From positions 1,060 to 65,059 of the forward strand of contig CAZXVW010000001.1 of the NCBI GenBank assembly GCA_964644025.1: 64,000 nucleotides of DNA. The letters are read 5' to 3'. Under the pieces are notes generated by a model. It saw only the letters and a list, made by a program, of their open reading frames with translations. It was not told where the DNA came from and made no database searches. The position numbers and the translations under genes were made by a program. Source of the stretch: an uncultured Solibacteraceae bacterium. Its GTDB lineage: Bacteria; Acidobacteriota; Terriglobia; Bryobacterales; Bryobacteraceae. Of this stretch, positions 17,764-64,000 are shown piece by piece; position 1 is the first letter of the stretch; each line of letters starts with the position of its first letter.

Positions 17764-17928
17764 CTGGTTCGATTGTGTCACACTGACACACCTGCCGCAT
17801 CCGGCCGGCCCAGGCGCCGGCCCAACCAGCCTCGCTGGCCCTTTGTTATCAATGCGAGACAAGGGGGTGGATGTTGGCAGTCCGCTTGCTATATAGTGGA
17901 GTGAATTGATGGAACACTCTCAAACCTG

Positions 17929-27490: not shown

Positions 27491-29113
27491 TCATTGGCCG
27501 GTCTGGGGCTTGATCCAGGTGAGCTGGCGCCACCAGGCGGCGCCGTCGTTGGCCTGCGCGGGTCCCGGCGTGCTCCGGCCTTGCTGGATGATCCGGGTGA
27601 TTTCGGCTTCCAGCCGCTTCACGACGTCCGGGTGTTCGGCGTAGACGTTGCGGGTTTCCCGGGAGTCGTTCTTCATGTCGTAAAGCTCGAACGGGGGCTC
27701 GCCGGGTTTGGGCGTGTAAAGGCGGGGCGGGAGGCTGCCGCCGGAGCCGCGGAACATGTTCAGCTTCCACGGCCCGTCGCGGATCGCGAAGTAACCGGCG
27801 GCCGAGTGGTGAATGATCGGGCCGCGGAGCGGCCGGGGGTAATCGTCGCCCAGCAGCGCGGGCAGGATGCTGAAGCTATCCTCGCCGGCATTGGGCGGAA
27901 GTTTCTGTCCGAGCATGGCGGCGAAGGTGGCCAGCAGGTCGGTCTGGCAGATCGGTTCGCTCGAGCGGCGGCCCGGCGCTACCACCCCAGGCCAGCGGAT
28001 GAGGAAGGGCAGGCGGTGGCCGCCCTCGTAAATGTCGCGTTTGCCGCCGCGGAAAACGTAGTTGCTGCGGTGATGGTAGATCTCCGCGCGTTTCCGGTAG
28101 GTGGTTTCCGGGCCGTTGTCGCTGGTGAAGACGATCATCGTATTCTCCGCCAGGCCGTGAGTTTCGAGTGCGTGGAGGATCTCGCCCACGTGGTAGTCGA
28201 GCTCGAGGACGAAGTCGCCGTAAGCGCCGGCCCGGCTCTTGCCCCGGAAGCGCGGCAGCGGGCAGACGGGCTTGTGCGGGGCGGTGTAAGCGAGGTAGAG
28301 GAAAAACGGCCGGCCGCGCCGGGCCTCGCCGCTGGCCTTGGCGATCCAGTCGACGGCCTTCCGGGTGAGGGTGGTCAGTACTTCCTGGTCGTTGAAGTTG
28401 GGCGCCACCTCGAGGTTGAGATCCCCGCGGGTCTTTGCGTACGGCGGCGTGATGCGGTAGTCGTCCAAAGCAATCCGGTTGGGCTTTTTGGCGGTCCACA
28501 GCACCGGCGCCACGGTGACGCGGGTGTTTTCGATATACGTCAGAATTCCGTAGTTCATCGACGCCGGGATGCCGTAGTAGTAGTCGAACCCCTTCTCGGT
28601 CGGTCCGTCCCGGACCGGGGCCGACCAGTCGCGGTCCCCTTTCCGGCCGGCGAACTTCATGCCGAGGTGCCACTTGCCGATCATGGCGGTGGCGTAGCCG
28701 TGCTGCTTGAGGAAGGAAGCCAGCGTCATGCGGCCGCCGGCGATCAGGCAATCGCCTTCGGCTCCCATCACTCCTTTCTTGAGCCGGGTACGCCAGCTAT
28801 AACGTCCGGTCAGCAGACCGTAGCGGGACGGAGTGCACACGGTATCGGAGCAATGCGCGTCGGTGAAGGCGATGCCTTCACGGGCGAGCCGGTCGAGATT
28901 CGGCGTGCGGAATTTCGCGTCCGGATTCAGCGCGCTCACGTCGCCGTAGCCCTGATCGTCGCTATAGATCAGCACGATGTTGGGCTTGTAAGTGGTTTTC
29001 GCCTGGACGCCGCGGGAGGCCATTAACGCGCCGGCGCACAGGCACAGGAGAATACCGAATTTGGGGCCATGGTGTCCAAACCCGGACTTAGAACAGGATC
29101 TGGCTGAACTCAT
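27491..29113 (-). CDS. Formylglycine-dependent sulfatase (arylsulfatase family)
   Basis: PNIVLIYSDDQGYGD. CSDTVCTPSRYGLLTGRY (CxPxR). FTSDNGPE. Start set at in-frame ATG 29113, giving the leader ...GILLCLCAGALMASRGVQA. This start overlaps the dapB 3' end by 26 nt and is uncertain. Confidence 0.85.
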   Translation of the reverse strand: MSSARSCSKSGFGHHGPKFGILLCLCAGALMASRGVQAKTTYKPNIVLIYSDDQGYGDVSALNPDAKFRTPNLDRLAREGIAFTDAHCSDTVCTPSRYGLLTGRYSWRTRLKKGVMGAEGDCLIAGGRMTLASFLKQHGYATAMIGKWHLGMKFAGRKGDRDWSAPVRDGPTEKGFDYYYGIPASMNYGILTYIENTRVTVAPVLWTAKKPNRIALDDYRITPPYAKTRGDLNLEVAPNFNDQEVLTTLTRKAVDWIAKASGEARRGRPFFLYLAYTAPHKPVCPLPRFRGKSRAGAYGDFVLELDYHVGEILHALETHGLAENTMIVFTSDNGPETTYRKRAEIYHHRSNYVFRGGKRDIYEGGHRLPFLIRWPGVVAPGRRSSEPICQTDLLATFAAMLGQKLPPNAGEDSFSILPALLGDDYPRPLRGPIIHHSAAGYFAIRDGPWKLNMFRGSGGSLPPRLYTPKPGEPPFELYDMKNDSRETRNVYAEHPDVVKRLEAEITRIIQQGRSTPGPAQANDGAAWWRQLTWIKPQTGQ

Positions 29114-29774
29114 AGAAACCCTTCTTGCCCACCAGCCAGCGGGCGGCGGTGAGCGCTCCGGCGGCAAAACCGACCCGGCTGCGGGCCTGGTGGCGGAGAG
29201 TGATGGTGTCCGCCGCCGAATCGAAGCCGATTTCGTGCGTGCCGGGCACCTTGCCGGCGCGGTTCGAGGCGACATCGATGGGGCGGTCCCAGCCGGCCTG
29301 TTTCATCTGATCGATGAGTTTCAGCATCGTACCGGAGGGAGCGTCCACCTTGGCGGCGTGGTGGATCTCCCATCCCCAGGCCCCGTACTCGGTCTGCGCG
29401 GCGAGCAAGCGGGCGGCCTCGGATACCAGGCGAAGGAAGACATTGACTCCGACCGAGAAGTTCGGGGCCCAGACCAGGCCGGTCCCGTGCCGGGCCACCG
29501 CAGCCTTAACCCGGTCCATGTGCTGGGTCCATCCCGTGGCGCCGGCGACGGTGTTCACGCCGAGGGCGGCGAGGCGCACCAGGTTTTCCGCCGCCGTCTC
29601 CGGCACGGAGAACTCCACGGCCACGTCAATGCCGGCGAAGTTTTCCGGGGTCAATGCCTCGTAGTTCGCGTTGTTGTATTCATCGAGGGTGAGCTTGACC
29701 TCGAAGCCATACTCGGGCGCAAGTTGCTCGATCATGCGGCCCATCTTGCCGTAGCCAACAATTGCCAGGTTCAT
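29088..29774 (-). CDS. dapB: 4-hydroxy-tetrahydrodipicolinate reductase
   Basis: MNLAIVGYGKMGRMI (Rossmann GxGxxG). WEIHHAAKVDAPSGT (E-x-HH-x-K-x-DAPSGT signature). Confidence 0.92.
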   Translation of the reverse strand: MNLAIVGYGKMGRMIEQLAPEYGFEVKLTLDEYNNANYEALTPENFAGIDVAVEFSVPETAAENLVRLAALGVNTVAGATGWTQHMDRVKAAVARHGTGLVWAPNFSVGVNVFLRLVSEAARLLAAQTEYGAWGWEIHHAAKVDAPSGTMLKLIDQMKQAGWDRPIDVASNRAGKVPGTHEIGFDSAADTITLRHQARSRVGFAAGALTAARWLVGKKGFYEFSQILF

Positions 29775-34358: not shown

Positions 34359-36716
34359 TCAGATTCGCATTTGCTCGGCCGGGCCGGCGATGGGTTCCCA
34401 GCGGGCTGACAGTTGCGGCTTGCCTTCCATACCGGCCCAGGCCTGGCCCTTCCCTTCGGGAGTGCGGATGAGGATGCCCGCGCGCCCGGTCTCCCGCTTC
34501 CATTGAAACGTGACCGGCTCCTGCTCATCGCGGACGAGCATCACGGCGGCGATGACAGTGGCGGCGGCGCGCCGCCGGGTAGAGGCGGTGAAGTGCCACT
34601 GGTTCGGCATGTCCTCCTGATACTCGGGCGGATTGCCCTCGTTGAACGGCGTGCCGAACCTGTCGGTCTGAGAAAGTTCGAAACCGCCCTGGCAGGCCAG
34701 GCGGACAGTGAGCGAGGCGCCCTTGCGCGCGGAGACGACGGCGTTGTTGCGCTCATCGACCTTCATCTTGTCAAAGGCGTGAAGCAGCCACTGGAACCGG
34801 GCGGGGCCGGGCGCTTCGAGTTCATCGACAACGAGGAAGACGCCGGGACGCAAGAACAGAACGTGGCGGAGGAACCGCTTCAGCTTACCGGCGTAGGCGG
34901 GCGTCGCATCGCCGCAAACGTAGGTGATGGCATGCTGGTGCCGGAACGCGGTGATCTTGCCGTTGGCCCAGGGCTGGCGAACCACCTGGCCCTCGCCGTC
35001 CACCAGGATCGCGTTGTTGGCCTTGGTCTGGCGGGTCCAGAGCGCGTGGTGCGGCATTCCGTAAGCAGGCCCGTAATAGCCGGAAGGGATCGCCAGCGCC
35101 CGGCCGCCCTTGAGGATGGCGAAGCTGTTCTGGTCGGCGTGGCTGTGGCTGACGCTGCCGTAAGGGCTGGACTTGAACAGAAAGAAAGTGTCCTGCCGGG
35201 GCCTGTCCAGGGCGCTGTGCAAGCCGGCCCACCCGACGCCCCGGAAGACGGCCGCGGCGGGAAGTCCACGGGGCGGCGCGGGGCGCACGTTGTCCTCGGT
35301 GATGAGCGAGATCATCGGGTCGGAGCCGGCCAGGGAAGCGCCGGTCTGGTCCGCCCACCAGACGCAGGCAGGGTCATGAAAGCGGCGCCCGTGATGCATC
35401 ATCAGAGCCGCGGCGGTGGAGCCAACGCCGCCCCGCTCAGTGCCGTCGCCGAACGGCTTGATCTCGCCGACCGGCGAGGCGCAGTAGAGGAAGAAGCGGC
35501 GGATCTTGCGGAAGAACGGGCGGCGGTACAAGTCGAAACCCGTGGCGCTGCGGAGGCTTTCCAGCGCGGGCAGGTAGATGGTGTTGTAAGCCTGAGCATA
35601 GCTGATGCCTTCGGCCCAGCCGCCGTCAATACCAGCCCAGTGAGGATAGAACGTGGTGAGAGCGCGCAGCGAGTAGTCGAGCCATTCGGCCGCGTCTGGA
35701 GCTTCGTCTTTCAAGACCACGGCGTACTCGCTCAAATAAGCGATCAGGCGCCCGTTGTGGCTTTCGCCAGGCCGGGCGAGGTAATCGGCGCGGCGCAGGC
35801 GTTCAAGCACCTGGCGGGCGCGGCCGATGGTCATCCGGCGGAGGCGGGCGCGCTCACCGTCATCGAGCAGCGGAAACAGCCAGTCGTAGGCGCGGTGGCC
35901 GTGGCGGGCCATGCTGAGGCCCGGTTCGTCGCCGTAGCGGGAGAGCACCGACATCGGGCCGTCAATGCCCCAGGTTTCCACTTCGAGCAGGATCTTTTTG
36001 GCCGCCAGGCCGTAGTGCTCCTCGCCGGTGAGCAACCAGGCCAGCGCCAGGATGCTCATGCCGCCGTCGATGAAGCGACGGAAGTCGCGAAAGTACGCCG
36101 TGTAACCCATCCGCTGGCGGGTGCGGCCTTCGAAGGTGTGATACCGCGGCGGCTTGGGCAGTGGGAGCTTGAGAGCTTCGTCGGCGCGCGGCCGGAGATC
36201 TTCCCATGCGCGGCGGCGGGTGGTGCGGAGCGTGGCGCGGATTTCTTCGAGTTCCCTGGCGGGGAAGATGTAGCGCGGGTGCGTGCCCGGGACGCTGGCG
36301 AGCAGCTCCCGCGGTTCTTTCCACGGCAGCTCCGGCAGATGGGCGGGGACGGTGAAGCGCCAGGCGCCGCGGCGGGCGACGACGGAGCCGGAAGCGCCCA
36401 GGGCCTCGACGTCCCAGGTATAGGAGCCGGGCGGGAACGTCCGGTCGGGCAGGTGCACCGGATCAAGCAGGCGAGGACTCTCGTACACAGTCTTTCCGCT
36501 CGTGTCACGGACTACCAGGCGATAGCCGGAGGCGCCCGGGGCGCGCCACCAGGCGAAGCCCGGCGGGTTGACACCGGCAGCGGCGCCATCGGCGGGGCGA
36601 GGGAACAGGCCGCGCGGTGGCGGAGTTTGCGGGAAGGCAACAGCGGCGCATAAGGCCTTCGGCGGAACAAGCAGCGGCGCAGCGGCGCCATGGAGAAAAT
36701 CGCGGCGGCGGAGCAT
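34359..36716 (-). CDS. Heparinase II/III-like protein (polysaccharide lyase-like), exported
   Basis: MLRRRDFLHGAAAPLL leader. C-terminal FKSSPYGSVSHSHADQNSFAILKGGRAL typical of the heparinase II/III domain. N-terminal alpha-toroid-like region. Confidence 0.75.
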   Translation of the reverse strand: MLRRRDFLHGAAAPLLVPPKALCAAVAFPQTPPPRGLFPRPADGAAAGVNPPGFAWWRAPGASGYRLVVRDTSGKTVYESPRLLDPVHLPDRTFPPGSYTWDVEALGASGSVVARRGAWRFTVPAHLPELPWKEPRELLASVPGTHPRYIFPARELEEIRATLRTTRRRAWEDLRPRADEALKLPLPKPPRYHTFEGRTRQRMGYTAYFRDFRRFIDGGMSILALAWLLTGEEHYGLAAKKILLEVETWGIDGPMSVLSRYGDEPGLSMARHGHRAYDWLFPLLDDGERARLRRMTIGRARQVLERLRRADYLARPGESHNGRLIAYLSEYAVVLKDEAPDAAEWLDYSLRALTTFYPHWAGIDGGWAEGISYAQAYNTIYLPALESLRSATGFDLYRRPFFRKIRRFFLYCASPVGEIKPFGDGTERGGVGSTAAALMMHHGRRFHDPACVWWADQTGASLAGSDPMISLITEDNVRPAPPRGLPAAAVFRGVGWAGLHSALDRPRQDTFFLFKSSPYGSVSHSHADQNSFAILKGGRALAIPSGYYGPAYGMPHHALWTRQTKANNAILVDGEGQVVRQPWANGKITAFRHQHAITYVCGDATPAYAGKLKRFLRHVLFLRPGVFLVVDELEAPGPARFQWLLHAFDKMKVDERNNAVVSARKGASLTVRLACQGGFELSQTDRFGTPFNEGNPPEYQEDMPNQWHFTASTRRRAAATVIAAVMLVRDEQEPVTFQWKRETGRAGILIRTPEGKGQAWAGMEGKPQLSARWEPIAGPAEQMRI

Positions 36717-36762: not shown

Positions 36763-38787
36763 TCAGCGATCGAGGCGCGACCACCGCTTCCTGGCCGCCA
36801 GCAGCCAGAGGAAGCCAGCGAGGAATGCCAGCGCCGAAGCGAGCCGGGCGAGCCGCATCTCCAGTCCGCCGTCGTAAGTAAGCCGGATGGTGCAAGGACC
36901 GTCGCAGTTCGGGTCGATGAGCATCAGGCCCAGTCCGTCGCGGCGAATGGGGCAGGAGGCGCCGTTCCAGCGCGCGCGCCAGCCAGGAGCATAGGTCACC
37001 TGAACGGAAATCAATTGCCCGGGCTCAAGACTGGCGGTGATTTCGGCCTCATGCGGACTGAGCCATTTGCAGGCGGCCGGGGGCGCTTGCGGGTCAGCGA
37101 GCGCGGCGAGATAGCCGGCCAGTGGTTCGGTGTCCTGGTAACCGGCAGGGGTCCGGGAGACGGCTTGTCCGGGCGCGATGACGTGCGCCAGGGAGCCGGA
37201 GACGCCGGGAACTTCGTAGATGACGTCATCACCGTCCCGCCACAGCTCACGGAACGTCCCGGCGAACTTGCCCGGGTCGCGGAAGTCACGGAACGCGTCG
37301 CGGCTGCCCGGCCCTCCCACGATGATCGCCTTCACTCCGAAGGCCCGCAACCAGGAAGCGGTGCGGGCCGGATCGTTTTCCGCAAACGTGACGCCGTAGA
37401 GAACATGAGGGAGAAGCGGGTTGGTGATCCCCTGATCAAACCCTCCACCGAGCATGGGATTGTCGGTGAAGGCGGTAAACCAGAACCGCGTGGAACCGGC
37501 GGCAAAAGCGCGCGCGCCGGGCAGGTTCCGGCCGAGCCAGCGGGCTGTTTCGTACTCGATGCCGCGCTGCATATCAGCCGGCTGAACCAGACCGCGGGCA
37601 TAAGAGTGGTAGCGGCGGGCTTGCACGATCACCAGCAAGACGAACAGCGCCAGCAGGACGGTTCGGACGCGGCGCGGCAGGCGGGCGGCCGCGAACACGG
37701 CCGCCAGCGCAAGAGCCATTTCCAGTTCCAAGTGATACCGCTCGGGCTGGGGGACCAGGTAGACGCCGAACCAGTACCGGGCGAGGACGATGGCGCCGAG
37801 AATCAGCGACAGATAGCAGGAAAACCGAAGGCATGGGGAGGCGCGGGTCCGGCCGAGCGAGAAACGGAGCGCGGCGAGCGCGGCCGCCAGCAGCAGCAGG
37901 TACAGCAATTGTGAGGGGCCGAGCGGGTAATGGCCCACCGTGTACTGAGCATTGTGACGAATGGCGGCGATGGTGGATGGCGGAATCCAGGGGGAGGCGA
38001 TGGCATAGGCAAGGACTCCGATCCCGGCTGCGAGCAGGAGTTTCCCGAGCCAGCGGCGGTCCGCTTCCGCCAGCAGGTAGGCCAGCACGGCGGCGGCCAA
38101 GGCGAGGGCGCCGAGCCAGTTGGTGACTACGACCGCCGCGGCGGTCAACGCGGCGGCGTATACGGGGACGGGCCGGCGTTTGCGCAAGGCCCAGCCGAGC
38201 GCCGCCAGGGCGATGGGCACGAGCGTCATGGCGGCCACGTGAGGCCCCTCGCCGTAGCGGACCAGCGCCTGCAAGCGGCGGGCATAAAACGGGCTGCCCA
38301 TGTCGGCAGCCACCGCCGGGATCAGCAGGGCGGACGGCGAGATCACCGAGTACAGCAGCGCGGCCGCGAAACTCGGCCAGCGCTCGCCGGAGAACTTCCA
38401 GGCGAACCAGAACAGCGTTACGGGTCCGAGCGAGTACATCGCGGCGGTCACGGCGTGGTAGGCCAGCGCCGTCGAGACGCCGGAGACGGCGGCCGCGCCC
38501 GCCACCAGGATGTGCAGCAGCGGCGGGTAGGTGTTCTGGAACGGGATGCCGCCATACCAGAGGGGAAACCACTGAAACTCCCCCGGATGATGAAGCATCC
38601 ACCGGCTGAGGCCGATGTAGGCGGCTTCAATGGAGTCCCGGTACTGAGTGTATTCGGTGACAAACAGCCGGCTGCACACCCAGGAATTGGCGCCGAGCAG
38701 GAGGAGTGCGAGTGCAAGCGGGCTCGAAAGCCGGGATAGAATGGAGGATCTGAGGTCGCGGGACAAGGCTGTGTGTTGGATCAGCAA
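36763..38787 (-). CDS. Large polytopic membrane protein, GT-C-like (uncharacterised)
   Basis: More than 10 hydrophobic segments, then a soluble C-terminal region and a final TM. WFPLWYGGIPFQNTYPPLLH loop motif. TTG start at 38787 (uncertain). Confidence 0.6.
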   Translation of the reverse strand: MLIQHTALSRDLRSSILSRLSSPLALALLLLGANSWVCSRLFVTEYTQYRDSIEAAYIGLSRWMLHHPGEFQWFPLWYGGIPFQNTYPPLLHILVAGAAAVSGVSTALAYHAVTAAMYSLGPVTLFWFAWKFSGERWPSFAAALLYSVISPSALLIPAVAADMGSPFYARRLQALVRYGEGPHVAAMTLVPIALAALGWALRKRRPVPVYAAALTAAAVVVTNWLGALALAAAVLAYLLAEADRRWLGKLLLAAGIGVLAYAIASPWIPPSTIAAIRHNAQYTVGHYPLGPSQLLYLLLLAAALAALRFSLGRTRASPCLRFSCYLSLILGAIVLARYWFGVYLVPQPERYHLELEMALALAAVFAAARLPRRVRTVLLALFVLLVIVQARRYHSYARGLVQPADMQRGIEYETARWLGRNLPGARAFAAGSTRFWFTAFTDNPMLGGGFDQGITNPLLPHVLYGVTFAENDPARTASWLRAFGVKAIIVGGPGSRDAFRDFRDPGKFAGTFRELWRDGDDVIYEVPGVSGSLAHVIAPGQAVSRTPAGYQDTEPLAGYLAALADPQAPPAACKWLSPHEAEITASLEPGQLISVQVTYAPGWRARWNGASCPIRRDGLGLMLIDPNCDGPCTIRLTYDGGLEMRLARLASALAFLAGFLWLLAARKRWSRLDR

Positions 38788-38867: not shown

Positions 38868-39740
38868 GTGAAGCTATCCTGGCTAGAACGGCTTTGGTGG
38901 CTCCTGCGACGGGCCTTCATCGCAGTATACGAAGACGGCTGCCTGGGCATTGCCAAGGGCGCTGCCTATTCGGGGCTGCTGTCATTCTTCCCGGTTCTCA
39001 CCACCGTGGCGCTGGTTCTGGTGAAGGTCAAGGCGGAACAAGTAGCGGAGGTGATCTCCCGGTTTCTGTTCGAAGTGGTCCCGCCGGGGACCCAAGAGCT
39101 GGTGATGCGGCAGTTCGCCTTTCGCGGGGAAAAGCCGGGGTCGCTCCTGGTGATCGCCGGACTGGTATCACTGGGAGCGGCATCGGGTTTCATCCTCAGC
39201 CTGGTCGAAGGTTTCAACGCGGTGTATCACGTGCCCACGGAACGGCCGCTGGTGCACGGCCGGCTGGTGGCAATCGGGCTGGTGTTCTCTTCGGCGCTAC
39301 CGGCGTTGTGCGCCTCGGCGATGATCATTTTCGGCGCCCGCACCGAACTGTGGCTGGTCAGGATGCTGGGCGTGATCGGGCAGGGCGAAGAATTAGTGGG
39401 CGGCCTGCTGTTGCTCGGCAAGTTGCTGCGGTATGGGATGGCTTACGTGGCGATGTCGGCGACCCTCCTGCTGTTATACAAGTTCGGCCCGAACCGTCCG
39501 CAGCCGTGGCGCCATATCTGGCCGGGCTCACTGGTAGCGGCGCTACTGTGGTTTCTGGCTACGCTGGGCTTTTCCTGGTACGTGCGCAATATCGCCGACT
39601 ACAACCTCATTTACGGAAGCATCGGCACGGTCATCGCCTTGCTGCTGTGGATGTACATTCTCTCGCTGGTCACCCTGTACGGTTGCGCCTTCAACGCCGA
39701 GCGCGAACGGCTGGAAAAAGCGCGCGGCGGTGAACTTTGA
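38868..39740 (+). CDS. YihY/BrkB-family inner-membrane protein
   Basis: GTG start. LGIAKGAAYSGLLSFFPVL and YGSIGTVIALLLWMYILSLVTLYG are typical YihY blocks. Confidence 0.8.
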   Translation: MKLSWLERLWWLLRRAFIAVYEDGCLGIAKGAAYSGLLSFFPVLTTVALVLVKVKAEQVAEVISRFLFEVVPPGTQELVMRQFAFRGEKPGSLLVIAGLVSLGAASGFILSLVEGFNAVYHVPTERPLVHGRLVAIGLVFSSALPALCASAMIIFGARTELWLVRMLGVIGQGEELVGGLLLLGKLLRYGMAYVAMSATLLLLYKFGPNRPQPWRHIWPGSLVAALLWFLATLGFSWYVRNIADYNLIYGSIGTVIALLLWMYILSLVTLYGCAFNAERERLEKARGGEL

Positions 39741-39791: not shown

Positions 39792-41255
39792 ATGTCATCT
39801 TCGTTTTCGTTCGGCGAAGTCCGTCTGGATGTGAATCCCGCCAGCCCGTCCTCACCGGCAAGGCCCGATCCGGAGACCCCGTTCCGGATTGCGGTGCTGG
39901 GGGACTTCAGCGGACGGGGCAGCCGGGGAATCGTGGAGTCCGGGCAAGCCATGGCCAGGCGCCGGCGATGGCTGATTGATCGCGACAACCTCGACGAGGT
40001 CATGGAACGGCTCGAGGTCGAACTGGATCTGCCGGTGGCGGGAAAGGTGCGGTTCCGGGAACTGGAGGATTTCCACCCTGACCGGCTTTATACGGAATTG
40101 GAGATGTTCCAGAAATTGAGAGAGGCGGAACAGGAAGCGGCGCGTGCGCCGGTTCCACCGCCCGCCCCCCGGCGGCCGCCGTCACCGCCGCCACCGGATT
40201 TGAGCCTGGACGGGCTGCTGGAGGCCGCCGTCGAGGCAACCGAGAGCGCGGCCAGCGAGCCCCGGCCGGCGCCCAAAGACAAGCTACATGCGTGGGTCGA
40301 GGAGACGGTGGCGCCGCACCTGGAACCGAAAGCCGACCCGCGGCGGGAGCAGATCCGGGCGCTGATCGACAAGACGGCAACGGCGCAGATGCGGGCCCTG
40401 ATGCACTATCCCACCTTCCAGGCGCTCGAGGCGGCATGGCGCGCAATGTTCTTCCTGGTACGGCGCGTGGAGACGGGCCCGAAGCTCAAGTTGTACCTGA
40501 TGGACGTGTCGAAGCAGGAGCTGGCCGCGGACCTGGGCGCGGCCGATGAGGCGCGGGAGACCGGCGTGTACCAACTGCTGGCCGGGGACTTGGAGGAGGC
40601 GCCCTGGGCGGTGATCGCCGGCCTGTACACGTTTGGGGCGGCCGGTGCGGACATGCCGCTGCTGGCGCGGCTGGCCGTGGTGGCGAAAGCGCTGGGCGCC
40701 CCGCTGCTGGCCGGAGCCGGGCCACGCCTGGCGGGCTGCAAATCGCTGGCCGCATCGCCGGATCCGGCTGAGTGGCGCGAGCCGGCTGACGCGGGCTGGG
40801 AAGCGTTCCGCGCGACGCCGGCGGCGGCTTCGGTGGGGCTGGCGCTTCCCCGGTTCCTGTTGCGGCTTCCTTACGGCAGGGAGACCGATCCGTGCGAGGC
40901 GTTCGCCTTCGAGGAGATGGGAGAGCAGCCGGAGCATGAAAGGTACCTGTGGGGTAATCCGGCGATTGCCTGCGCCTCCCTGCTGGCCGAATCGTTTGCG
41001 GCGAGCGAATGGGACTTCCGTCCCGGCCAACACCTTCGGATCGACGGGCTGCCGCTGCACGTGTACCGGCGCGACGGCGAATCCGTGGCTCAGCCTTGCG
41101 CCGAGACGCTGCTCGGCGAACGCGCCGCCGAACGCATTCTGGAGAATGGCCTGATGGCGCTGGCGTCTTACCGGGACCGTGATTCCATCCGCCTGGTGCG
41201 GTTCCAGTCGGCGGCGCGCCCGGCTGCTCCGTTGGCGGCCTGGTGGGCGCGGTAA
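39792..41255 (+). CDS. Fused TssB-TssC (T6SS contractile-sheath-like) protein lacking the C-terminal TssC domain
   Basis: AAGGAGAG SD. TssB-like: PFRIAVLGDFSGRG, LIDRDNLDEVMERLEVELDLPV, LEDFHPDRLYTELEMFQKL. Pro-rich linker PVPPPAPRRPPSPPPP. TssC-like: MHYPTFQALEAAWRAMFFLV, KLKLYLMDVSKQELAADL, LPRFLLRLPYG, YLWGNPA, IDGLPLHVY. The ORF ends about where canonical TssC still has roughly 140 aa to go. Confidence 0.75.
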   Translation: MSSSFSFGEVRLDVNPASPSSPARPDPETPFRIAVLGDFSGRGSRGIVESGQAMARRRRWLIDRDNLDEVMERLEVELDLPVAGKVRFRELEDFHPDRLYTELEMFQKLREAEQEAARAPVPPPAPRRPPSPPPPDLSLDGLLEAAVEATESAASEPRPAPKDKLHAWVEETVAPHLEPKADPRREQIRALIDKTATAQMRALMHYPTFQALEAAWRAMFFLVRRVETGPKLKLYLMDVSKQELAADLGAADEARETGVYQLLAGDLEEAPWAVIAGLYTFGAAGADMPLLARLAVVAKALGAPLLAGAGPRLAGCKSLAASPDPAEWREPADAGWEAFRATPAAASVGLALPRFLLRLPYGRETDPCEAFAFEEMGEQPEHERYLWGNPAIACASLLAESFAASEWDFRPGQHLRIDGLPLHVYRRDGESVAQPCAETLLGERAAERILENGLMALASYRDRDSIRLVRFQSAARPAAPLAAWWAR

Positions 41256-41362: not shown

Positions 41363-41980
41363 TCAGCTCTGTTCCCACTCCCGTTCCAGCATCTGAGCGT
41401 ATTCGCCGGAGGCGTACAGGGAGAAGTCGAACCGCCTCGGGTTGAGTTCCGTGTAGCGGTTCAGGTTGAGGCGCGCGGCAAAAAGGTGATCCGCGTAGCG
41501 ATAGTAGTTCCGGAGAAAATCGCTGGTAAGCTGCGTCTGCTCCGGCGGCTCGACAAAAACCGAACTGATGCCGATTGCCCGGGAGAAGATTCCCTGGTAG
41601 TCCGCCACTCCCCACTTGCGCAGTTTGTCCTTGACGGCTTTGGGCGGGTTGTAGACCAACAAATAGGCGAAGCTCTGGAAGCGGATTCCCTCTTCGGCCA
41701 GTTCGGCGTGGTGGGAGACGAAGTCCAGGCATTGTTCAATCCAGCGGACCAGGTCCTTGCCCACGTAGAACAACATGCGAAACTCGCAATAGCGGCCGGC
41801 GACCACCTTCCGTTCAAGTTCTTCCCCGGTGAGGTCGCCACCGGGCAGCAAGCCCTGCAGAATCAAGTTCGCCCGTGAGCTTTCTACCAGTTGGCCGGGG
41901 CCGTTGGCGTCGGAAAAGGGATGGAGAATCAGCGGGGGGAGGGTCCACACCCGGTTGCGATCTACTGCGCCAGTTGACAT
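41363..41980 (-). CDS. Hypothetical protein, no recognisable family
   Basis: 205-aa ORF with coding-like composition. Last gene of the minus-strand M14-DsbA string and convergent with the TssBC-like gene. Confidence 0.5.
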   Translation of the reverse strand: MSTGAVDRNRVWTLPPLILHPFSDANGPGQLVESSRANLILQGLLPGGDLTGEELERKVVAGRYCEFRMLFYVGKDLVRWIEQCLDFVSHHAELAEEGIRFQSFAYLLVYNPPKAVKDKLRKWGVADYQGIFSRAIGISSVFVEPPEQTQLTSDFLRNYYRYADHLFAARLNLNRYTELNPRRFDFSLYASGEYAQMLEREWEQS

Positions 41981-47454: not shown

Positions 47455-48684
47455 ATGCGGATGGGCGCTGAATTCAGTTCGTGGGAGGCAGAGCCGCACT
47501 CCCTGGTGGTTTATTACACCAACGCCGTAATGGAAGAGATCCGGCGGGCGGCGATGGAGGGATTGCGAAAGGTTCCGCGGCGCGGGCTCGAGGTGGGAGG
47601 CGTGCTTTTCGGTACGCACGAGGGGAACGAGATCCGAATCACGCGGTGGCGGACGATCGAGTGCGAACACGCCGAAGGCCCCGGTTTTGCGCTTTCCGCC
47701 AGTGATGAAGAGGGGCTTCGCCAGTTGCTCGATGAGGCGGAGAAGGATCCGGAATTGGGCAAACTGACGCCGCTGGGCTGGTTTCGGACGCGCACGCGGG
47801 GAGGAGTATGCCTCTCGGAGGACGACGTCAAGCTGCACGACCGGTTTTTTCCCGAGCCGTGGCAAGTGATCCTGGTGCTGCGGCCTTATCTGTACGACCC
47901 GGCGCAGGCGGGATTTTTTCTCCGGGAGGCGGACGGCTCCATCGGGATGGAGTCGAGCTCCCGGGAGTTCTTGCTCGAAAACAAGCAGCGCCGGCTACCG
48001 CTGGGATTCGATCCCTCTCAGGCGGTCCAAAGACCCGCTGAGGGAGAGGGGGCTCCGCACCCGGTTCCACGCTTGCCGCTGGCGCCGGGGCGGGAAGCTT
48101 ACACTCCCCCGGGCACGATTGCGGCTGCCGGAGAGAGGCCAGTGAAGCCGTCACGGTGGTGGAGGGCCGGCTCGGTGGTGGCGGTGGCTGCTGCCGCGGC
48201 CCTGACGTTGTACCTGGCGGTGCCGGTCCTGGAAACGGGCGGCCGGACAAGCGCCCTGGACCTGGAGGTGCGGAACGTGGGGGACCAGTTGTTGTTGGAG
48301 TGGAATCCGCGCGCTCCGGCGGTGGCGAACGCCGTGGCCGCCTCGCTGGCGATCGTGGACGGGGACACGCAACGCCGGGTCCAGCTTACCCCGGAAGAGC
48401 TTCGGAGCGGCAGCCTGACCTACCAGCGCCAGGGTGGAGATGTCCAGTTCCGCTTGCGCCTGGAGTTTCCCGAGGGGGAGCCGTTGACTGAGCTCACGCG
48501 GTTCCTCGGCGCGGCGCCGGCGGCAAACGCCGAGCTTCCGGAAAGCGGCGAGGAAGCCTCGCCGGAGCTTGCCGCGATAATCGATCAGCTTCAGAAGGAG
48601 CTTGCGGCCGAAGCCCGGCGCGCGGACGAATTACGCCGCCAAATCCAGGCGGAGCGGCAGCGGCTGGGTGTTGCCGGCCAGTGA
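47455..48684 (+). CDS. Membrane-anchored pseudo-JAMM/MPN-domain protein with coiled-coil tail
   Basis: RGLEVGGVLFG (conserved Glu). GWFRTRTRGGVCLSEDD aligns to the JAMM H-x-H-x7-S-x2-D motif with both His replaced by Arg (R111, R113; S121 and D124 kept). TM WWRAGSVVAVAAAAALTLYLAVPVL. C-terminal LQKELAAEARRADELRRQIQAERQRL. Confidence 0.6.
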   Translation: MRMGAEFSSWEAEPHSLVVYYTNAVMEEIRRAAMEGLRKVPRRGLEVGGVLFGTHEGNEIRITRWRTIECEHAEGPGFALSASDEEGLRQLLDEAEKDPELGKLTPLGWFRTRTRGGVCLSEDDVKLHDRFFPEPWQVILVLRPYLYDPAQAGFFLREADGSIGMESSSREFLLENKQRRLPLGFDPSQAVQRPAEGEGAPHPVPRLPLAPGREAYTPPGTIAAAGERPVKPSRWWRAGSVVAVAAAAALTLYLAVPVLETGGRTSALDLEVRNVGDQLLLEWNPRAPAVANAVAASLAIVDGDTQRRVQLTPEELRSGSLTYQRQGGDVQFRLRLEFPEGEPLTELTRFLGAAPAANAELPESGEEASPELAAIIDQLQKELAAEARRADELRRQIQAERQRLGVAGQ

Positions 48685-50098: not shown

Positions 50099-51952
50099 TT
50101 ACTGGCGTAACGGAGCGCCCTGGCTTCGGGTTTTGAACAGGGTGCGGACGCCGGCGCCGTGGCTTCCGGCCTGGTAATAAGGCACGAGGACCACACTCGT
50201 TCCCTTCAGCCGGTAGGCGCAGGTCATCGGATCGGAACCAGCATCGCGGACCGGCTCCAGCAGGGACGTCGCGTCTTTGTCAGCCGGGCCAGCGGAGATG
50301 ACGGGTGGGGAAGCCTTGGGGTCCGTCACGTCCTGCGCGAGAACCAGCGGCCCGCGGGTGAAAGCCACCCAGTTTTCGGAATTGCGGCCTGCGTGGAAAT
50401 GCGCTTTCAGAGCGAAGGCGAACTTGACGCGAACCGTCTCGCCCGGTTTCCAAGTCCGCTCCAGGCGGTAGAAGCCAGTGGCCGTCTTCACGAGAGATTG
50501 GGGTTCGCCGTCAATGGTGACCGCCAGGGCGGTAGTGTCCTCGGGCAAACGGAAATCGACCGCCAGCCGCACCGGGCGCGCCAGGCCGAGTTTCAGCGTC
50601 ACCTGGTCGTCAAACGGGTAGTTGCCTTCGATCGTAAGGCGTTCCACGCCGGGCCAGCGGCCTGTAAGGCTCGCCTGCATTGGTAGGTAGCTGTTCACGA
50701 CCAGCGCATCGCCGGCCCGGCCCAGCAAATGGCGCGCGTACATTTCCAGCGCCCGCGGACCGCTGGAAGCACAGCAACTGATCCGGTCTTCGTATTTGCG
50801 CCGCGGACAATTCGCCGGGGTGAAGTAGGCCCAGTCATTGCCATTCGGCGCCTGCGCCCCGAACAGGTGGTTGAGCACCGCGCGCTCGGCCGCATTTCCG
50901 TAACGGGCTTCGCCGGTGATGCGCAGCAGTTCCAGGCAAAGCTGAATCCAGGTGACGGTGGAGCAGTTCTCGACCACGTGGGCCGGGTCGAAGAATTCCG
51001 GCGGCGCGAAGCACTCCCGGTTCTTGTTCGGGGCGGATTTGTAACTCCACGGGCCGCCGGTCACGTAGGTGTGGTAGGCGCGGATGTTTTCCCAGCCCTT
51101 CTGGCAGGCATTTCCGTACAGAGGTTCCCGCGTCGCACGGTACAACTCCCCGTAACCCAGCAGCACCGCCATGAGCTGATAGGCTTTCCCGTCACCTGGT
51201 CCTTCGACGTCGCCGCCGGAACTCAGCACACTGGCCACGCGGAGGCGGGGATTCCTCTCCATGCATTGGTGAATGTAGATGGCGAAGTCGAGAAACCGCG
51301 GCTCGTGGGTCCGCTCATAAAGCATCATGATGGACTCCAGCAGCGTGGCTGAAGAGATGCCCTCGCGCGTTCCAATTGCGGTCAGGTCTTGCCGGCCGGG
51401 CCCCAGGGCGGACATCAGCAGATCGCCGATGGCTTCACAAGCCCGGACGACGGCCGGGTTCGGATGGAAACGCTCGTAAGTGAGCAGCCCGTAGAGCACG
51501 TATCGGTGGGTCCAGATGTCCCAGGAGGTCTGATTCACTCCGCCAGGCTCATAGAAGCGCTTCCCGGGGGCGTAGGTTCCCAGGTAGCCGTTGGTTTCCT
51601 GAGCGGCCAGCAGCCGGTGGACCACGCCGGTGAGGGCCGCGAGCAGCTTCGGATCGTGGGTGGCCTCATAAGCCAGTGTCGCGGCGTGGAGCCACTTGCC
51701 CACGTGTTCGCCTTGCCAGGCGTGCTGGCCGGGCCGGGACTCGAATCCTTTGAGCAGAAACGGATCGTTGACCACCCGCCAGAGACGATGCTCGCGCCAG
51801 AGCTGGAGCCGCTGCCCGAGGATGCCTCCTACCTTCACGTCTGGGATCTGTTGCCAGGCGTCCGGCTTTGCGACCGACGGCCGGGGAGCGCGGCACCCGG
51901 CCGCCAGCAGGCCCAGGCCAACCAGAACCGCCAAAGGTTTCAGCGCCTTCAT
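50099..51952 (-). CDS. GH127-like (DUF1680, beta-L-arabinofuranosidase family) protein, lipoprotein leader
   Basis: MKALKPLAVLVGLGLLAAGC lipobox. WQGEHVGKWLHAATLAYEATHDPKL and the downstream (alpha/alpha)6-like pattern, as in DUF1680 proteins. Confidence 0.6.
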   Translation of the reverse strand: MKALKPLAVLVGLGLLAAGCRAPRPSVAKPDAWQQIPDVKVGGILGQRLQLWREHRLWRVVNDPFLLKGFESRPGQHAWQGEHVGKWLHAATLAYEATHDPKLLAALTGVVHRLLAAQETNGYLGTYAPGKRFYEPGGVNQTSWDIWTHRYVLYGLLTYERFHPNPAVVRACEAIGDLLMSALGPGRQDLTAIGTREGISSATLLESIMMLYERTHEPRFLDFAIYIHQCMERNPRLRVASVLSSGGDVEGPGDGKAYQLMAVLLGYGELYRATREPLYGNACQKGWENIRAYHTYVTGGPWSYKSAPNKNRECFAPPEFFDPAHVVENCSTVTWIQLCLELLRITGEARYGNAAERAVLNHLFGAQAPNGNDWAYFTPANCPRRKYEDRISCCASSGPRALEMYARHLLGRAGDALVVNSYLPMQASLTGRWPGVERLTIEGNYPFDDQVTLKLGLARPVRLAVDFRLPEDTTALAVTIDGEPQSLVKTATGFYRLERTWKPGETVRVKFAFALKAHFHAGRNSENWVAFTRGPLVLAQDVTDPKASPPVISAGPADKDATSLLEPVRDAGSDPMTCAYRLKGTSVVLVPYYQAGSHGAGVRTLFKTRSQGAPLRQ

Positions 51953-61164: not shown

Positions 61165-61168
61165 CCTC

Positions 61169-62146: not shown

Positions 62147-62156
62147 AACCGCCTCG

Positions 62157-63518: not shown

Positions 63519-63532
63519 TCGTTCTTAATTCC

Positions 63533-64000
63533 TCATGCCGGTTGCGCTTGCCGGGCCGCCTCGGCCTGGCGGCGATCCACCCGGGCCGCGGCAATCAGAC
63601 GCCCGGCGTATTTGTCGATGGCCCGTCCCAGTTCGCACTCGCTGCCCAACGACTGGCCGACCGAGATCACCCGGTGCAGGGAAAAATAATCGTTCGGCAG
63701 GATCTGGTAGACCGGGCAGTTGAAAATCTTCTCCATGTCCGAACTTCCAATTCCGTCCCGTTTGCTGGAACGGTTGATCAGCACCCGGAACCGGTCCCTG
63801 GAAAACCCCAACTGCTCCAGCAAGCTCACCGCCCGACGCGTCAGGTGCAAGCTTGCCAGCTCCGAGGTGGAAACCAGGAACGTTTCGTCGGACTCGGAAA
63901 CCGCCAGCAGGCTGGTCCGGTGGGGGACCGCCGGGGCATCGACAATCACCCACGCGTAGAGCATCCGCGCAAATTCCAGCACATCATGCAGACGGTTCGG
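63533..64000 (-). CDS. cpaE: CpaE/TadZ-like ParA/MinD-family pilus assembly protein (5' end beyond right window edge)
   Basis: The reading frame stays open to position 64000. VIVDAP ... LVSTSELASLHLTRRAVSLLEQLG ... RVLINR matches the C-terminal half of MinD/ParA-type TadZ. Lies immediately upstream of cpaF. Confidence 0.7.
   Translation of the reverse strand, partial: PNRLHDVLEFARMLYAWVIVDAPAVPHRTSLLAVSESDETFLVSTSELASLHLTRRAVSLLEQLGFSRDRFRVLINRSSKRDGIGSSDMEKIFNCPVYQILPNDYFSLHRVISVGQSLGSECELGRAIDKYAGRLIAAARVDRRQAEAARQAQPA

What the first reader, a model, noticed from the sequence alone, without database searches (positions are those of the whole stretch)
39792..41255. Orphan single-polypeptide TssB-TssC sheath fusion lacking the C-terminal sheath domain, with no T6SS genes nearby
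Seen in sequence: one 487-aa ORF carries recognisable TssB/VipA blocks (RIAVLGDFSG, IDRDNLDEVM, EDFHPDRLY). These are joined by a proline-rich linker (PVPPPAPRRPPSPPPP) to TssC/VipB blocks (HYPTFQALEAAWR, LMDVSKQEL, LLRLPYG, YLWGNPA, GLPLHVY). The ORF stops right after the ...LVRFQS block. Canonical TssC continues there for roughly 140 more residues, forming the C-terminal gp25-like/handshake part. Only about 107 nt remain before the convergent gene, so this is not a recent frameshift remnant.
Established knowledge: in canonical T6SS, TssB and TssC are separate proteins. Their N- and C-terminal strands interlace to build the contractile sheath, and the genes sit with tssE/F/G/K/M, hcp, vgrG and clpV. 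None of these is visible within about 20 kb on either side.
Inference: this may be a repurposed sheath-derived protein (a non-contractile filament or scaffold) or part of an undescribed minimal system. The neighbours are a YihY/BrkB membrane protein 51 nt upstream on the same strand and an unassignable 205-aa protein convergent downstream.
Basis: partly seen in the sequence, partly recalled or inferred. Interest (0 to 1): 0.72.

Follow-up and report, generated by a model that had tools for sequence, protein, structure and literature searches.

The report
Truncated single-chain T6SS sheath paralogue
The gene is real and encodes a fused, shortened copy of the two type VI secretion sheath proteins. 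It belongs to a large, apparently undescribed family that usually sits inside complete type VI secretion clusters beside the normal sheath genes, so this lone copy is more likely a detached accessory part than a new stand-alone system.

Summary
ORF 39792-41255 (+), 487 aa, is one polypeptide: a TssB/VipA-like part (aa 25-114), a Pro-rich linker, then the TssC/VipB N-terminal domain (aa 190-473). It has no VipB_2 C-terminal domain. No T6SS gene or remnant occurs anywhere in the 64 kb.

The truncated fusion is a monophyletic family found in at least several hundred species-level genomes across six or more phyla. Nearly all members stop just after a conserved C-terminal motif.

In 55 of 84 related loci the gene lies within 10 kb of T6SS core genes, and wherever the sheath genes lie within the stretch read they are separate, full-length tssB and tssC. 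It is therefore an accessory paralogue, not a replacement sheath or minimal system. Detached copies like this one arose several times. This lineage keeps a yihY-fusion gene pair in three genomes.

The protein keeps sheath domains 2 and 3. It also keeps a TssB-like N-terminal arm and an LL[DE]xx[VILM] motif aligned with the ClpV-binding motif of VipB. It lacks the handshake domain needed to polymerise.

Best reading: a non-polymerising sheath mimic that modulates sheath assembly or ClpV-driven disassembly, here acting with a T6SS encoded elsewhere. That last point is untested. I found no description of the family in the literature searched.

The parts
39792..41255 (+). Whole ORF, called FUS here: a 487-aa single-chain TssB-TssC(deltaC) sheath paralogue, coordinates including the stop codon.
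   Evidence: ORF list. Pfam VipA + VipB without VipB_2. AF2 model pLDDT 81.3, pTM 0.79. Foldseek matches TssC chains 5n8n_B, 5urx_1B and 3j9g at E about 1e-22, with about 305 aligned columns and rmsd 3.3-3.4 A for 5urx_1B and 3j9g (5n8n_B: 333 columns, 4.7 A).
39804..39833 (+). N-terminal arm (aa 5-14, FSFGEVRLDV). It aligns in register with the TssB N-terminal donor strand beta1 (RVQITYDVE).
   Evidence: MAFFT alignment with cognate TssB proteins. The PDB profile alignment starts at TssB residue 12. Low pLDDT in the monomer model. The homology is inferred, not proven.
39864..40145 (+). TssB/VipA-like core (aa 25-118): strands beta2 and beta3 of sheath domain 2 and the TssB helix of domain 3. 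The C-terminal part of TssB is missing.
   Evidence: Pfam PF05591 profile 22-118/155. Profile against PDB TssB: 5urw_1A residues 12-125 of 164 and 4uqz_B residues 24-138 of 172. Domain definitions from PMC5807055.
40149..40196 (+). Pro-rich low-complexity linker (aa 120-135, PVPPPAPRRPPSPPPP) at the fusion junction. Its length varies across the family.
   Evidence: Alignment A1, columns about 140-200. pLDDT below 50.
40215..40232 (+). LLEAAV motif (aa 142-147) within predicted helix 139-149. It aligns with the TssC N-terminal LLDEI(I/M) ClpV-binding motif.
   Evidence: Alignment with cognate TssC. The motif LL[DE]xx[VILM] is present in 146 of 198 family members. VipB 19-LLDEIM-24 binds the ClpV N-domain groove (PMC4239648).
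40359..41210 (+). TssC/VipB N-terminal-domain homologue (aa 190-473): the rest of sheath domains 2 and 3.
   Evidence: Pfam PF05943 profile 5-299/301, E 7e-54. Profile against PDB TssC 5urw_1B residues 5-369 of 494.
41199..41252 (+). Family-specific C-terminal tail (aa 470-487, RFQSAARPAAPLAAWWAR). It replaces the whole TssC C-terminal (handshake, domain 1) region.
   Evidence: R470, P477 and L481 are invariant and W485 nearly so. Motif frequency and end position. MAFFT places LAGRW against the TssC motif FLNRWI, a possible relic.
38868..39740 (+). Upstream yihY/brkB-family inner-membrane protein gene, 51 nt before FUS on the same strand. The pair is syntenic only within this subclade.
   Evidence: PF03631 E 8.5e-56. 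The yihY-FUS pair is conserved in L001/L002 (P0003, 62% identity) and L087 (P0004, 58%). It is absent from the other loci examined.
36763..38787 (-). Divergent 674-aa multi-pass membrane protein with no family assignment. It is part of the same small synteny block.
   Evidence: 57% identical homologue in the same position in L001/L002. No Pfam or NCBIfam hit.
41363..41980 (-). Convergent 205-aa ORF of unknown family. It is not linked to the fusion family.
   Evidence: No Pfam or NCBIfam hit. No homologue in any of the 84 other loci. Present only on a near-identical ENA contig.

Best explanation
The gene encodes a member of a conserved, so far unnamed family of T6SS accessory proteins, called FUS here. 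FUS is a duplicated tssB-tssC pair fused into one chain. It has lost the TssB C-terminus and the whole TssC C-terminal 'handshake' domain (sheath domain 1).

Shown: the protein keeps the middle and outer sheath layers (domains 2 and 3) as one self-contained fold. It lacks the beta-sheet that accepts neighbours' strands and the TssC C-terminal donor strand.

Inferred: it cannot build or extend a contractile sheath. It can still present three things: a TssB-like N-terminal arm, an outer sheath surface, and an LLDxx(I/V) helix equivalent to the one ClpV recognises on contracted sheaths. I propose it docks on the sheath or on ClpV as a non-propagating sheath mimic. In that role it would tune sheath assembly, termination or ClpV-dependent recycling, possibly under control of the protein methyltransferases and Ser/Thr kinase/phosphatase genes encoded beside it in many genomes.

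In this window the gene is a detached copy, probably co-transcribed with yihY. It most likely serves a T6SS encoded elsewhere in the genome; this is inferred and was not testable.
For: Architecture and truncation.

Fold: a confident AF2 model matches TssC chains of five solved sheaths.

Which elements are kept or lost: the P. aeruginosa sheath description in PMC5807055 defines the handshake as TssC beta11 and beta12, plus the neighbour's TssC C-terminal beta13, plus TssB beta1. Domain 2 is TssB beta2-3 with TssC beta1-4 and beta8. Domain 3 is three helices.

Family: more than 3,400 hits. The top 120 are all PF05591+PF05943 fusions of 431-557 aa (only one, a 431-aa hit with 85% query coverage, lacks the PF05591 assignment). 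At least 561 confirmed matches in species-representative genomes from Acidobacteriota, Desulfobacterota, Nitrospirota, Planctomycetota, Gemmatimonadota, Binatia and Gammaproteobacteria.

Context: 55 of 84 loci are T6SS-linked, in stereotyped positions: FUS-tssB-tssC-hcp-impE-tssA-tssEFG-clpV, clpV-FUS-vgrG, and tssK-L-M-x-x-FUS. Where the sheath genes fall inside the stretch read, they are separate tssB and tssC.

Phylogeny: FUS is monophyletic and separated from TssC by a long branch. FUS and cognate TssC distances correlate (Mantel r 0.75, 0 of 2000 permutations). FUS evolves about twice as fast as TssC.

Motifs: the ClpV-type motif is retained in 74% of members, including this one. The window copy keeps all invariant residues.

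Close relatives: a member of the window's own clade is T6SS-embedded. In Bryobacterales the T6SS genes are themselves split over loci (L080, L081).
Against: No T6SS gene lies within the 64 kb, and the rest of the genome could not be examined.

Thirteen loci with at least 6 kb of flank on both sides are equally orphan. Some form orphan-rich clades, so a T6SS-independent role in those lineages is not excluded.

The yihY-FUS pairing is conserved at 58-64% protein identity, which hints at a local functional link.

The ClpV-motif and N-arm homologies rest on alignment only. A quarter of members lack the strict motif. TssB C-termini carry a similar L(D/E)xLLxxV string, so the origin of the helix is ambiguous.

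No binding, localisation or phenotype data exist. The Mantel correlation could reflect shared species phylogeny alone.
Confidence: 0.6

Rival explanations
1. T6SS-independent, repurposed sheath-derived protein. In orphan lineages the truncated fusion would work on its own, or with the neighbouring YihY/BrkB membrane protein, for example as a membrane-associated scaffold.
For: No T6SS genes in 64 kb. The yihY-FUS synteny, with a short same-strand gap, is conserved in three genomes at 58-64% identity. There are 13 clear orphan loci, including an orphan-rich Bryobacterales/Solibacteraceae clade. The orphan copy keeps an intact ORF and all family invariants.
Against: The family as a whole is strongly T6SS-linked. 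Orphan copies are polyphyletic and nested among T6SS-linked ones. P0008, from the same clade, lies between tssB and tssK. Orphans keep the sheath- and ClpV-related motifs at rates similar to linked copies: 7 of 13 against 38 of 55. YihY is not a neighbour in any other clade. The handshake domain needed for any sheath-like polymer is absent.
Confidence: 0.2
2. FUS is itself a structural sheath subunit of a specialised ring, for example a first or last ring or an outer decoration. This would be like the extra sheath paralogues of extracellular contractile injection systems, rather than a soluble regulator.
For: FUS is encoded directly next to tssB-tssC or clpV-vgrG. It retains a TssB-like N-terminal donor arm that could insert into a neighbouring canonical subunit. 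It has a conserved C-terminal tail of unknown partner.
Against: It lacks the acceptor sheet and the C-terminal donor strand, so it could be held by at most one arm. The N-arm is poorly conserved and has low confidence in the model. FUS evolves about twice as fast as TssC, which is unusual for a lattice subunit.
Confidence: 0.15
3. FUS replaces TssB and TssC as the sheath of a minimal or novel contractile system.
For: It combines both sheath proteins in one chain, as phage sheath proteins do (established knowledge).
Against: Wherever the sheath genes fall inside the stretch read, separate full-length tssB and tssC accompany FUS (28-30 of the 55 T6SS-linked loci). The domain that forms the inner layer and the inter-subunit mesh is missing. 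No tube, baseplate or spike genes lie near the orphan copies.
Confidence: 0.03
4. The gene is a decaying remnant or pseudogene of a lost T6SS cluster.
For: It is isolated from T6SS genes and truncated relative to TssC.
Against: The ORF is intact with a good ribosome-binding site. Codon composition is typical. All 35 invariant family positions are kept. The same end point occurs in about 90% of roughly 200 homologues. No downstream remnant exists.
Confidence: 0.02

Closest known systems
Canonical T6SS sheath heterodimer TssB/VipA + TssC/VipB (for example V. cholerae 3J9G/5MXN, M. xanthus 5URW/5URX, P. aeruginosa 5N8N)
   Same: FUS is homologous over TssB residues about 12-125 and TssC residues about 5-369, at about 31-32% identity. 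It has the same fold for domains 2 and 3, the same core motifs (LExxWR, LPRxLxRLPYG, YLWGN), and an LLDxxI-type N-terminal helix.
   Different: FUS is one polypeptide joined by a Pro-rich linker. It has no TssB C-terminus and no VipB_2 (domain 1), so no handshake acceptor, no TssC C-terminal donor strand and no tube-facing layer. It has its own conserved C-terminal tail. It scores below the NCBIfam equivalog cutoffs. It co-exists with, rather than replaces, the canonical pair.
TagJ/HsiE1, the accessory protein of the P. aeruginosa H1-T6SS
   Same: The similarity is functional analogy only, and is inferred. Both are non-core, cluster-encoded proteins proposed to link sheath components and ClpV (PMC4239648).
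   Different: There is no homology. TagJ binds the TssB N-terminal helix and ClpV1 in systems whose TssC lacks the LLDEII motif. FUS occurs in clusters whose TssC keeps that motif (22 of 24), and FUS carries a copy of the motif itself.
Additional sheath paralogues of extracellular contractile injection systems (Afp2/3/4, Pvc2/3/4); this comparison is from my own knowledge and was not tested here
   Same: One contractile machine encodes several sheath-family proteins with specialised positions.
   Different: Those paralogues keep the conserved handshake core and differ in their outer domains. FUS is the reverse: the outer layers are kept and the core is lost.
Single-chain phage and pyocin tail sheath proteins (T4 gp18, R2 pyocin sheath)
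   Same: In both, the N-terminal (TssB-equivalent) and later (TssC-equivalent) segments lie in one chain (PMC5807055).
   Different: Phage sheaths contain domain 1 with both arms and lack T6SS domain 3. Foldseek matches to them are only marginal (E 0.03-0.3). The variable low-complexity junction suggests that FUS is a secondary fusion (inference).

Membership tests
TssB/VipA small sheath subunit (PF05591; TIGR03358) | Significant match to the family model | tested here: met
   PF05591 scores 40.5 bits against a cutoff of 24, E 3e-10. PDB TssB chains match at E 1e-10 to 1e-14 with the family profile.
TssB/VipA small sheath subunit (PF05591; TIGR03358) | Equivalog-level score and full-length coverage as a separate polypeptide of about 160-175 aa | tested here: not met
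   TIGR03358 scores 38 bits against a cutoff of 97.25 and covers only positions 23-120 of 160. The segment is part of a 487-aa chain.
TssC/VipB large sheath subunit (PF05943 + PF18945; TIGR03355) | N-terminal sheath domain (VipB, PF05943) | tested here: met
   183 bits, profile 5-299/301. Foldseek E about 1e-22 to TssC chains.
TssC/VipB large sheath subunit (PF05943 + PF18945; TIGR03355) | C-terminal domain (VipB_2, domain 1) carrying the handshake sheet and the C-terminal donor strand | tested here: not met
   No PF18945 hit. TIGR03355 covers only positions 26-355 of 473, at 184 bits against a cutoff of 271.5. The alignment to PDB TssC ends at residue 369 of 494. No remnant elsewhere in the window.
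TssC/VipB large sheath subunit (PF05943 + PF18945; TIGR03355) | Encoded with tssB and other T6SS core genes | tested here: not met
   None in the 64-kb window.
Unnamed TssB-TssC(deltaC) fusion family ('FUS', defined here) | Single chain VipA + linker + VipB with no VipB_2, length about 460-560 aa | tested here: met
Unnamed TssB-TssC(deltaC) fusion family ('FUS', defined here) | C-terminal motif (F/L)(Q/E)(S/A)x3-5Px3Lx(G/A/P)x(W/G), ending the protein within a few residues | tested here: met
   The window has RFQSAARPAAPLAAWWAR-stop. The motif is in 179 of 198 members.
Unnamed TssB-TssC(deltaC) fusion family ('FUS', defined here) | Falls inside the monophyletic FUS clade, separate from canonical TssC | tested here: met
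   NJ tree: the 24 TssC sequences are monophyletic, FUS forms the other side, and the window groups with L001/L002, P0004, P0006 and P0002.
Unnamed TssB-TssC(deltaC) fusion family ('FUS', defined here) | Located in or next to a T6SS cluster that also has tssB and tssC (typical, not universal) | tested here: not met
   The window copy is orphan, like 13 clear orphans among the 84 loci.
ClpV-recognised sheath component (V. cholerae type) | N-terminal helix with an LLDEI(I/M)-type motif that docks into the ClpV N-domain groove | tested here: inconclusive
   The motif LLEAAV lies at the aligned position, and the motif is defined in PMC4239648. Binding itself is not testable with these tools.

The most novel reading that the evidence does not exclude
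FUS is an ancient, undescribed accessory component of a major branch of T6SSs in Acidobacteriota, Desulfobacterota, Nitrospirota, Planctomycetota and other phyla. It is a single-chain 'outer-layer-only' sheath mimic that cannot polymerise. It would cap or decorate the sheath, or engage ClpV through its own LLDxxI helix, adding a new control step in sheath assembly and recycling. It would itself be regulated by dedicated protein methyltransferases (PKMT-like and HemK/PrmC-like) that travel with it even outside T6SS clusters. Detached copies such as this one would act in trans, or would have been co-opted for a T6SS-independent role.
Probability: 0.35. Interest if true: 0.7.

Novelty: new variant of a known kind. 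Interest (0 to 1): 0.58.

Why it matters
T6SS sheath dynamics are explained today with TssB, TssC, TssA-type caps, TssE and ClpV, with TagJ in some systems. Almost all of that work comes from Proteobacteria.

This family is a conserved extra sheath-derived protein, present in hundreds of species of soil, sediment and groundwater phyla, that keeps the ClpV-recognition region but not the polymerisation domain. It would be a new handle on how sheath length, stability or recycling is controlled. It also offers a natural 'domain 2+3 only' construct for structural work.

Its tight linkage to two protein methyltransferase families points to an unexplored post-translational layer of T6SS control.

For annotation, these genes are currently labelled ImpC/TssC. 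That label can inflate T6SS counts, or suggest a T6SS where only this orphan is present.

Tried and rejected
Literature. Seven full-text searches (plus for structure papers) and targeted reading of PMC4793230 and PMC2660368 found no description of a TssB-TssC fusion or a truncated TssC paralogue. This is absence in the held library only.

Whole-genome T6SS content of the window's organism. The exact protein was found only on a 2.8-kb ENA contig, and the cluster members carry no accession numbers, so this could not be determined.

Plasmid collection. A tblastn search found only canonical tssC at 56-65% query coverage and no fusion. The family seems absent from the mostly proteobacterial plasmids.

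Promoter and terminator scan. The scan of 38.5-42.2 kb found no promoter-like sites and no more terminator-like sites than in shuffled sequence, so it was uninformative.

The 205-aa downstream gene. Rejected as a partner: it has no homologue near any other family member.

MacB/FtsX-type permease and ABC ATPase genes near several orphan copies. Considered as partners but set aside, because such permeases are extremely abundant in Acidobacteria (my own knowledge), so this is probably coincidence.

Orphan versus T6SS-linked copies. The comparison of motif retention showed no clear difference.

Homo-oligomer or complex prediction.

PMC4359589 (the V. cholerae sheath paper) is not held. Domain definitions were taken from PMC5807055 instead.
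Full report
OBSERVATION

The ORF at 39792-41255 (+) is real: ATG start, 487 aa. GC3 is 0.81, like the neighbouring genes. An AAGGAG ribosome-binding site lies 7 nt upstream of the start.

Pfam finds T6SS_VipA at aa 25-114 (profile 22-118 of 155, E 3e-10). It finds the VipB N-terminal sheath domain at aa 190-473 (profile 5-299 of 301, E 7e-54). There is no VipB_2 C-terminal domain. The NCBIfam equivalog models for TssB and TssC both match, but only partially and well below their cutoffs; TIGR03355 covers positions 26-355 of 473.

The family profile was compared with solved sheath proteins. It aligns to TssB residues 12-125 of 164 and to TssC residues 5-369 of 494 in the M. xanthus sheath.

No trace of the missing TssC C-terminal region exists in any frame of the window, even at E<=10.

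Upstream, 51 nt away on the same strand, is a YihY/BrkB membrane protein gene. Downstream, 107 nt away and convergent, is a 205-aa ORF with no family.

No T6SS gene is present anywhere in the 64 kb. This rests on Pfam scans of 33 ORFs in all: the gene and its two flanking ORFs and 30 further ORFs, including all predicted ORFs between 29 and 61 kb bar one 111-aa ORF. It also rests on tblastn with nine T6SS core references plus ImpE, and on protein clustering of the window's ORFs with the related loci, the only check made for TssA, TssL and TssM. One detail differs: canonical TssC continues for about 120-125 more residues, not about 140.

THE FAMILY

The protein is not a one-off.

A search of the large protein collection returned more than 3,400 hits. 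The best 120 are all single-chain PF05591+PF05943 proteins of 431-557 aa (one, a 431-aa hit covering 85% of the query, lacks the PF05591 assignment); the others cover 95-100% of the query, all at 44-64% identity.

An alignment of 39 members (A1) shows 35 invariant positions. It also shows a conserved C-terminal motif, RLVRFQS-x-x-DP-xxx-LAGRW, after which the proteins stop. In about 200 members, 90% carry this tail, and 159 of 179 end 0-3 residues after it. The truncation is therefore ancestral to the family and is not a recent lesion.

The 80 loci retrieved come from Acidobacteriota (the majority), Desulfobacterota, Nitrospirota, Planctomycetota, Gemmatimonadota, Binatia and Gammaproteobacteria.

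In a neighbour-joining tree the fusions, called FUS here, form one clade. A long branch separates it from the canonical TssC proteins of the same loci.

GENOMIC CONTEXT

Of 84 FUS loci, 55 contain T6SS core genes within the 10-kb flanks. Thirteen are clear orphans, with at least 6 kb of T6SS-free sequence on both sides. Sixteen have flanks too short to judge.

The linked loci follow stereotyped layouts:
- Acidobacteriota: tssM-PP2C-STK-x-x-FUS-tssB-tssC-hcp-impE-tssA-tssE-tssF-tssG-clpV.
- Desulfobacterota and Nitrospirota: tssA-tssB-tssC-hcp-tssE-tssF-tssG-clpV-FUS-vgrG, with gaps of a few tens of nucleotides.
- A third layout: tssK-tssL-tssM-x-x-FUS-methyltransferase-methyltransferase.

Where the sheath genes lie within the stretch read (28-30 of the 55 linked loci), a separate tssB and a full-length tssC with VipB_2 are present. 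FUS is therefore an extra, accessory paralogue. It is not a substitute sheath and not the core of a minimal system.

Pairwise distances of FUS and of the cognate TssC correlate (Mantel r 0.75, 0 of 2000 permutations). FUS evolves about twice as fast. This is consistent with long co-residence, although shared species phylogeny could produce the same signal.

THE WINDOW COPY

The window protein groups with P0002, P0003, P0004 and P0006 at 55-64% identity.

P0003 and P0004 keep the same arrangement as the window: a yihY gene followed by FUS. P0003 also keeps the divergent 674-aa membrane protein. P0002 has a different context. P0008, slightly further out in the same clade, lies between tssB and tssK.

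Orphan copies are polyphyletic, falling in at least three places on the tree. In Bryobacterales the T6SS genes are themselves dispersed; L080 and L081 have tssK-tssK-tssL-tssM-FUS with nothing further.

The most economical reading is that FUS has repeatedly been moved away from the cluster, and that in this lineage it landed next to yihY.

The 205-aa convergent gene has no homologue near any other family member.

I could not establish whether the window organism has a T6SS elsewhere. Only this contig is accessible.

STRUCTURE AND LIKELY MECHANISM

The AF2 model built with alignment A1 is confident (pLDDT 81.3, pTM 0.79). The exceptions are residues 1-30 and the Pro-rich junction at about 125-165.

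The model matches the TssC chains of the P. aeruginosa, M. xanthus, V. cholerae, A. vinelandii and Francisella sheaths. For the first three, E is about 1e-22; 5urx_1B and 3j9g align over about 305 columns at rmsd 3.3-3.4 A, and 5n8n_B over 333 columns at 4.7 A.

The published P. aeruginosa sheath description (PMC5807055) divides the sheath as follows:
- Inner layer, domain 1: a handshake sheet made of two TssC C-terminal-domain strands, plus the C-terminal strand of a neighbouring TssC, plus the N-terminal strand of a neighbouring TssB.
- Middle layer, domain 2: TssB beta2-3 interleaved with TssC beta1-4 and beta8.
- Outer layer, domain 3: a three-helix bundle that includes the TssC N-terminal helix recognised by ClpV.

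By alignment, FUS contains domains 2 and 3 in a single chain. It lacks the acceptor sheet and the TssC donor strand. That much is shown. It follows by inference that FUS cannot propagate a sheath lattice or contact the Hcp tube.

Three retained features suggest what FUS can still do:
- N-terminal arm. The N-terminus (FSFGEVRLDV; family consensus SFGEIxLDV) aligns in register with the TssB donor strand RVQITYDVE.
- ClpV-type motif. After the linker there is a helix with LLEAAV (family forms LLDEMI, LLDQMV and similar). It aligns with the N-terminal LLDxxI of the cognate TssC proteins. In V. cholerae VipB this motif (19-LLDEIM-24) docks into the ClpV N-domain groove (PMC4239648). The strict motif is present in 146 of 198 FUS proteins and in 22 of 24 cognate TssC proteins.
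- C-terminal tail. The tail is family-specific and strongly conserved.

I therefore propose a non-polymerising sheath mimic. It would dock on ClpV, or on sheath ends or surfaces, and tune assembly, termination or recycling. I put the accessory-T6SS reading at about 0.6. Any single sub-mechanism (ClpV adaptor or decoy, or end cap) I put at roughly 0.3 or less.

A further clue comes from neighbouring methyltransferase genes. A PKMT-like protein methyltransferase is always the next gene downstream where it is present (9 of 9 loci). A DUF7059-MTS-DUF7782 enzyme resembling HemK/PrmC protein glutamine methyltransferases lies within two genes of FUS in 15 of 18 loci. Four of the methyltransferase-bearing loci contain no T6SS core genes. 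This suggests FUS is the target or partner of protein methylation. That is inference only.

COMPARISON WITH KNOWN SYSTEMS, AND NOVELTY

FUS is homologous to TssB and TssC. It fails the defining features of both as families: it is not a separate small subunit, it lacks the C-terminal handshake domain, it scores below the equivalog cutoffs, and here it has no T6SS context.

In function it may resemble TagJ/HsiE1, a ClpV- and sheath-linked accessory protein, but the two are not homologous.

It inverts the pattern of the eCIS sheath paralogues, which keep the core and vary the outer domains (my own knowledge).

Source databases label members 'ImpC' or 'type VI secretion system contractile sheath (large subunit or domain-containing) protein'. 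Neither Pfam nor NCBIfam has a dedicated model for the family. Seven literature searches and two targeted readings found no description. The family is also absent from the mostly proteobacterial plasmid collection, which may explain why it has been overlooked.

I rate it a new variant of a known kind.

VERDICT

The 'orphan repurposed or minimal system' part is not supported at family level and remains open only for this lineage.

Interest is moderate to high for T6SS biology (0.58). The thing worth following up is the family and its methyltransferase linkage, not the orphan status of this particular copy.

Noticed in passing
L003, L006, L007, L010, L013, L019, L023, L031, L041, L042, L044, L047, L051, L057, L061, L071, L082 (genes within two positions of the fusion gene): Two protein methyltransferase families travel with the fusion gene. 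A PKMT-like enzyme (PF10119 + PF21782) is always the next gene downstream (9 of 9 loci). A DUF7059-MTS-DUF7782 enzyme resembling HemK/PrmC glutamine methyltransferases lies within two genes in 15 of 18 loci. Four of the methyltransferase-bearing loci have no T6SS core genes nearby.
   Followed up: partly
L014, L022, L025, L035, L037, L038, L053 (two genes upstream of FUS); L042, L044, L046, L051, L060, L061 (between tssM and FUS): Conserved uncharacterised neighbours have no Pfam or NCBIfam assignment. One pair is an approximately 897-aa protein plus an approximately 444-aa protein. The other is an approximately 116-aa protein plus an approximately 159-aa protein. They could be further undescribed T6SS accessory or membrane-complex components in Acidobacteriota.
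   Followed up: partly
L020, L027, L060, L071, L072, L076, L080, L081: These T6SS clusters encode two divergent TssK paralogues (about 55% and about 40% identity to the reference) close to the fusion gene.
   Followed up: no
window 60244-63982 (-): A Tad/Flp-type pilus gene set: two T2SSF-type membrane proteins (TadB/TadC-like; 60244-61164 has a Pfam hit, 61169-62179 is judged by sequence only), a CpaF/T2SSE ATPase (62157-63518), and a partial upstream gene running towards the window end.
   Followed up: partly
window 1717-3210, 25857-27371, 27491-29275, 34359-36716, 50099-51952: The window is rich in polysaccharide-degradation genes. Pfam identifies one sulfatase (27491-29275), an alpha-L-fucosidase, a heparinase II/III-like protein and a GH127 beta-L-arabinofuranosidase; a second sulfatase-like ORF (1717-3210) is judged from its translation only. 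There is also a CarboxypepD_reg/OMP_b-brl_4 TonB-type outer-membrane protein (19210-22680). This fits an Acidobacteriota-like lifestyle.
   Followed up: partly
window 7372-9147 (-): An FHA-GAF-SpoIIE/PP2C phosphatase. It is the only FHA-domain protein in the window, about 31 kb from the fusion gene. It is not of the TagH type and shows no evident link to T6SS.
   Followed up: no
window 47455-48684 (+), 3233-6055 (+), 16384-17862 (-), 36763-38787 (-), 41363-41980 (-): Five sizeable ORFs with good codon bias have no Pfam hit. For three of them (47455-48684, 36763-38787, 41363-41980) NCBIfam was also negative. The 674-aa membrane protein is syntenic with yihY-FUS in a related genome. The 205-aa ORF has no detectable relatives in any fetched locus.
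   Followed up: partly
L016, L030, L033, L036, L052, L064, L077, L084: MacB_PCD/FtsX permease genes, often with an ABC ATPase, recur near orphan copies of the fusion gene in Bryobacterales and Solibacteraceae genomes. This is probably coincidence, given how abundant these permeases are in Acidobacteria, but it was not tested.
   Followed up: no
window 40284-41060 (-) and other antisense ORFs across 34-46 kb: Long antisense ORFs overlap the real genes, for example 258 aa opposite the fusion gene and 746 to 954 aa opposite neighbouring genes. They are the usual artefact of 65% G+C DNA, not genes.
   Followed up: yes
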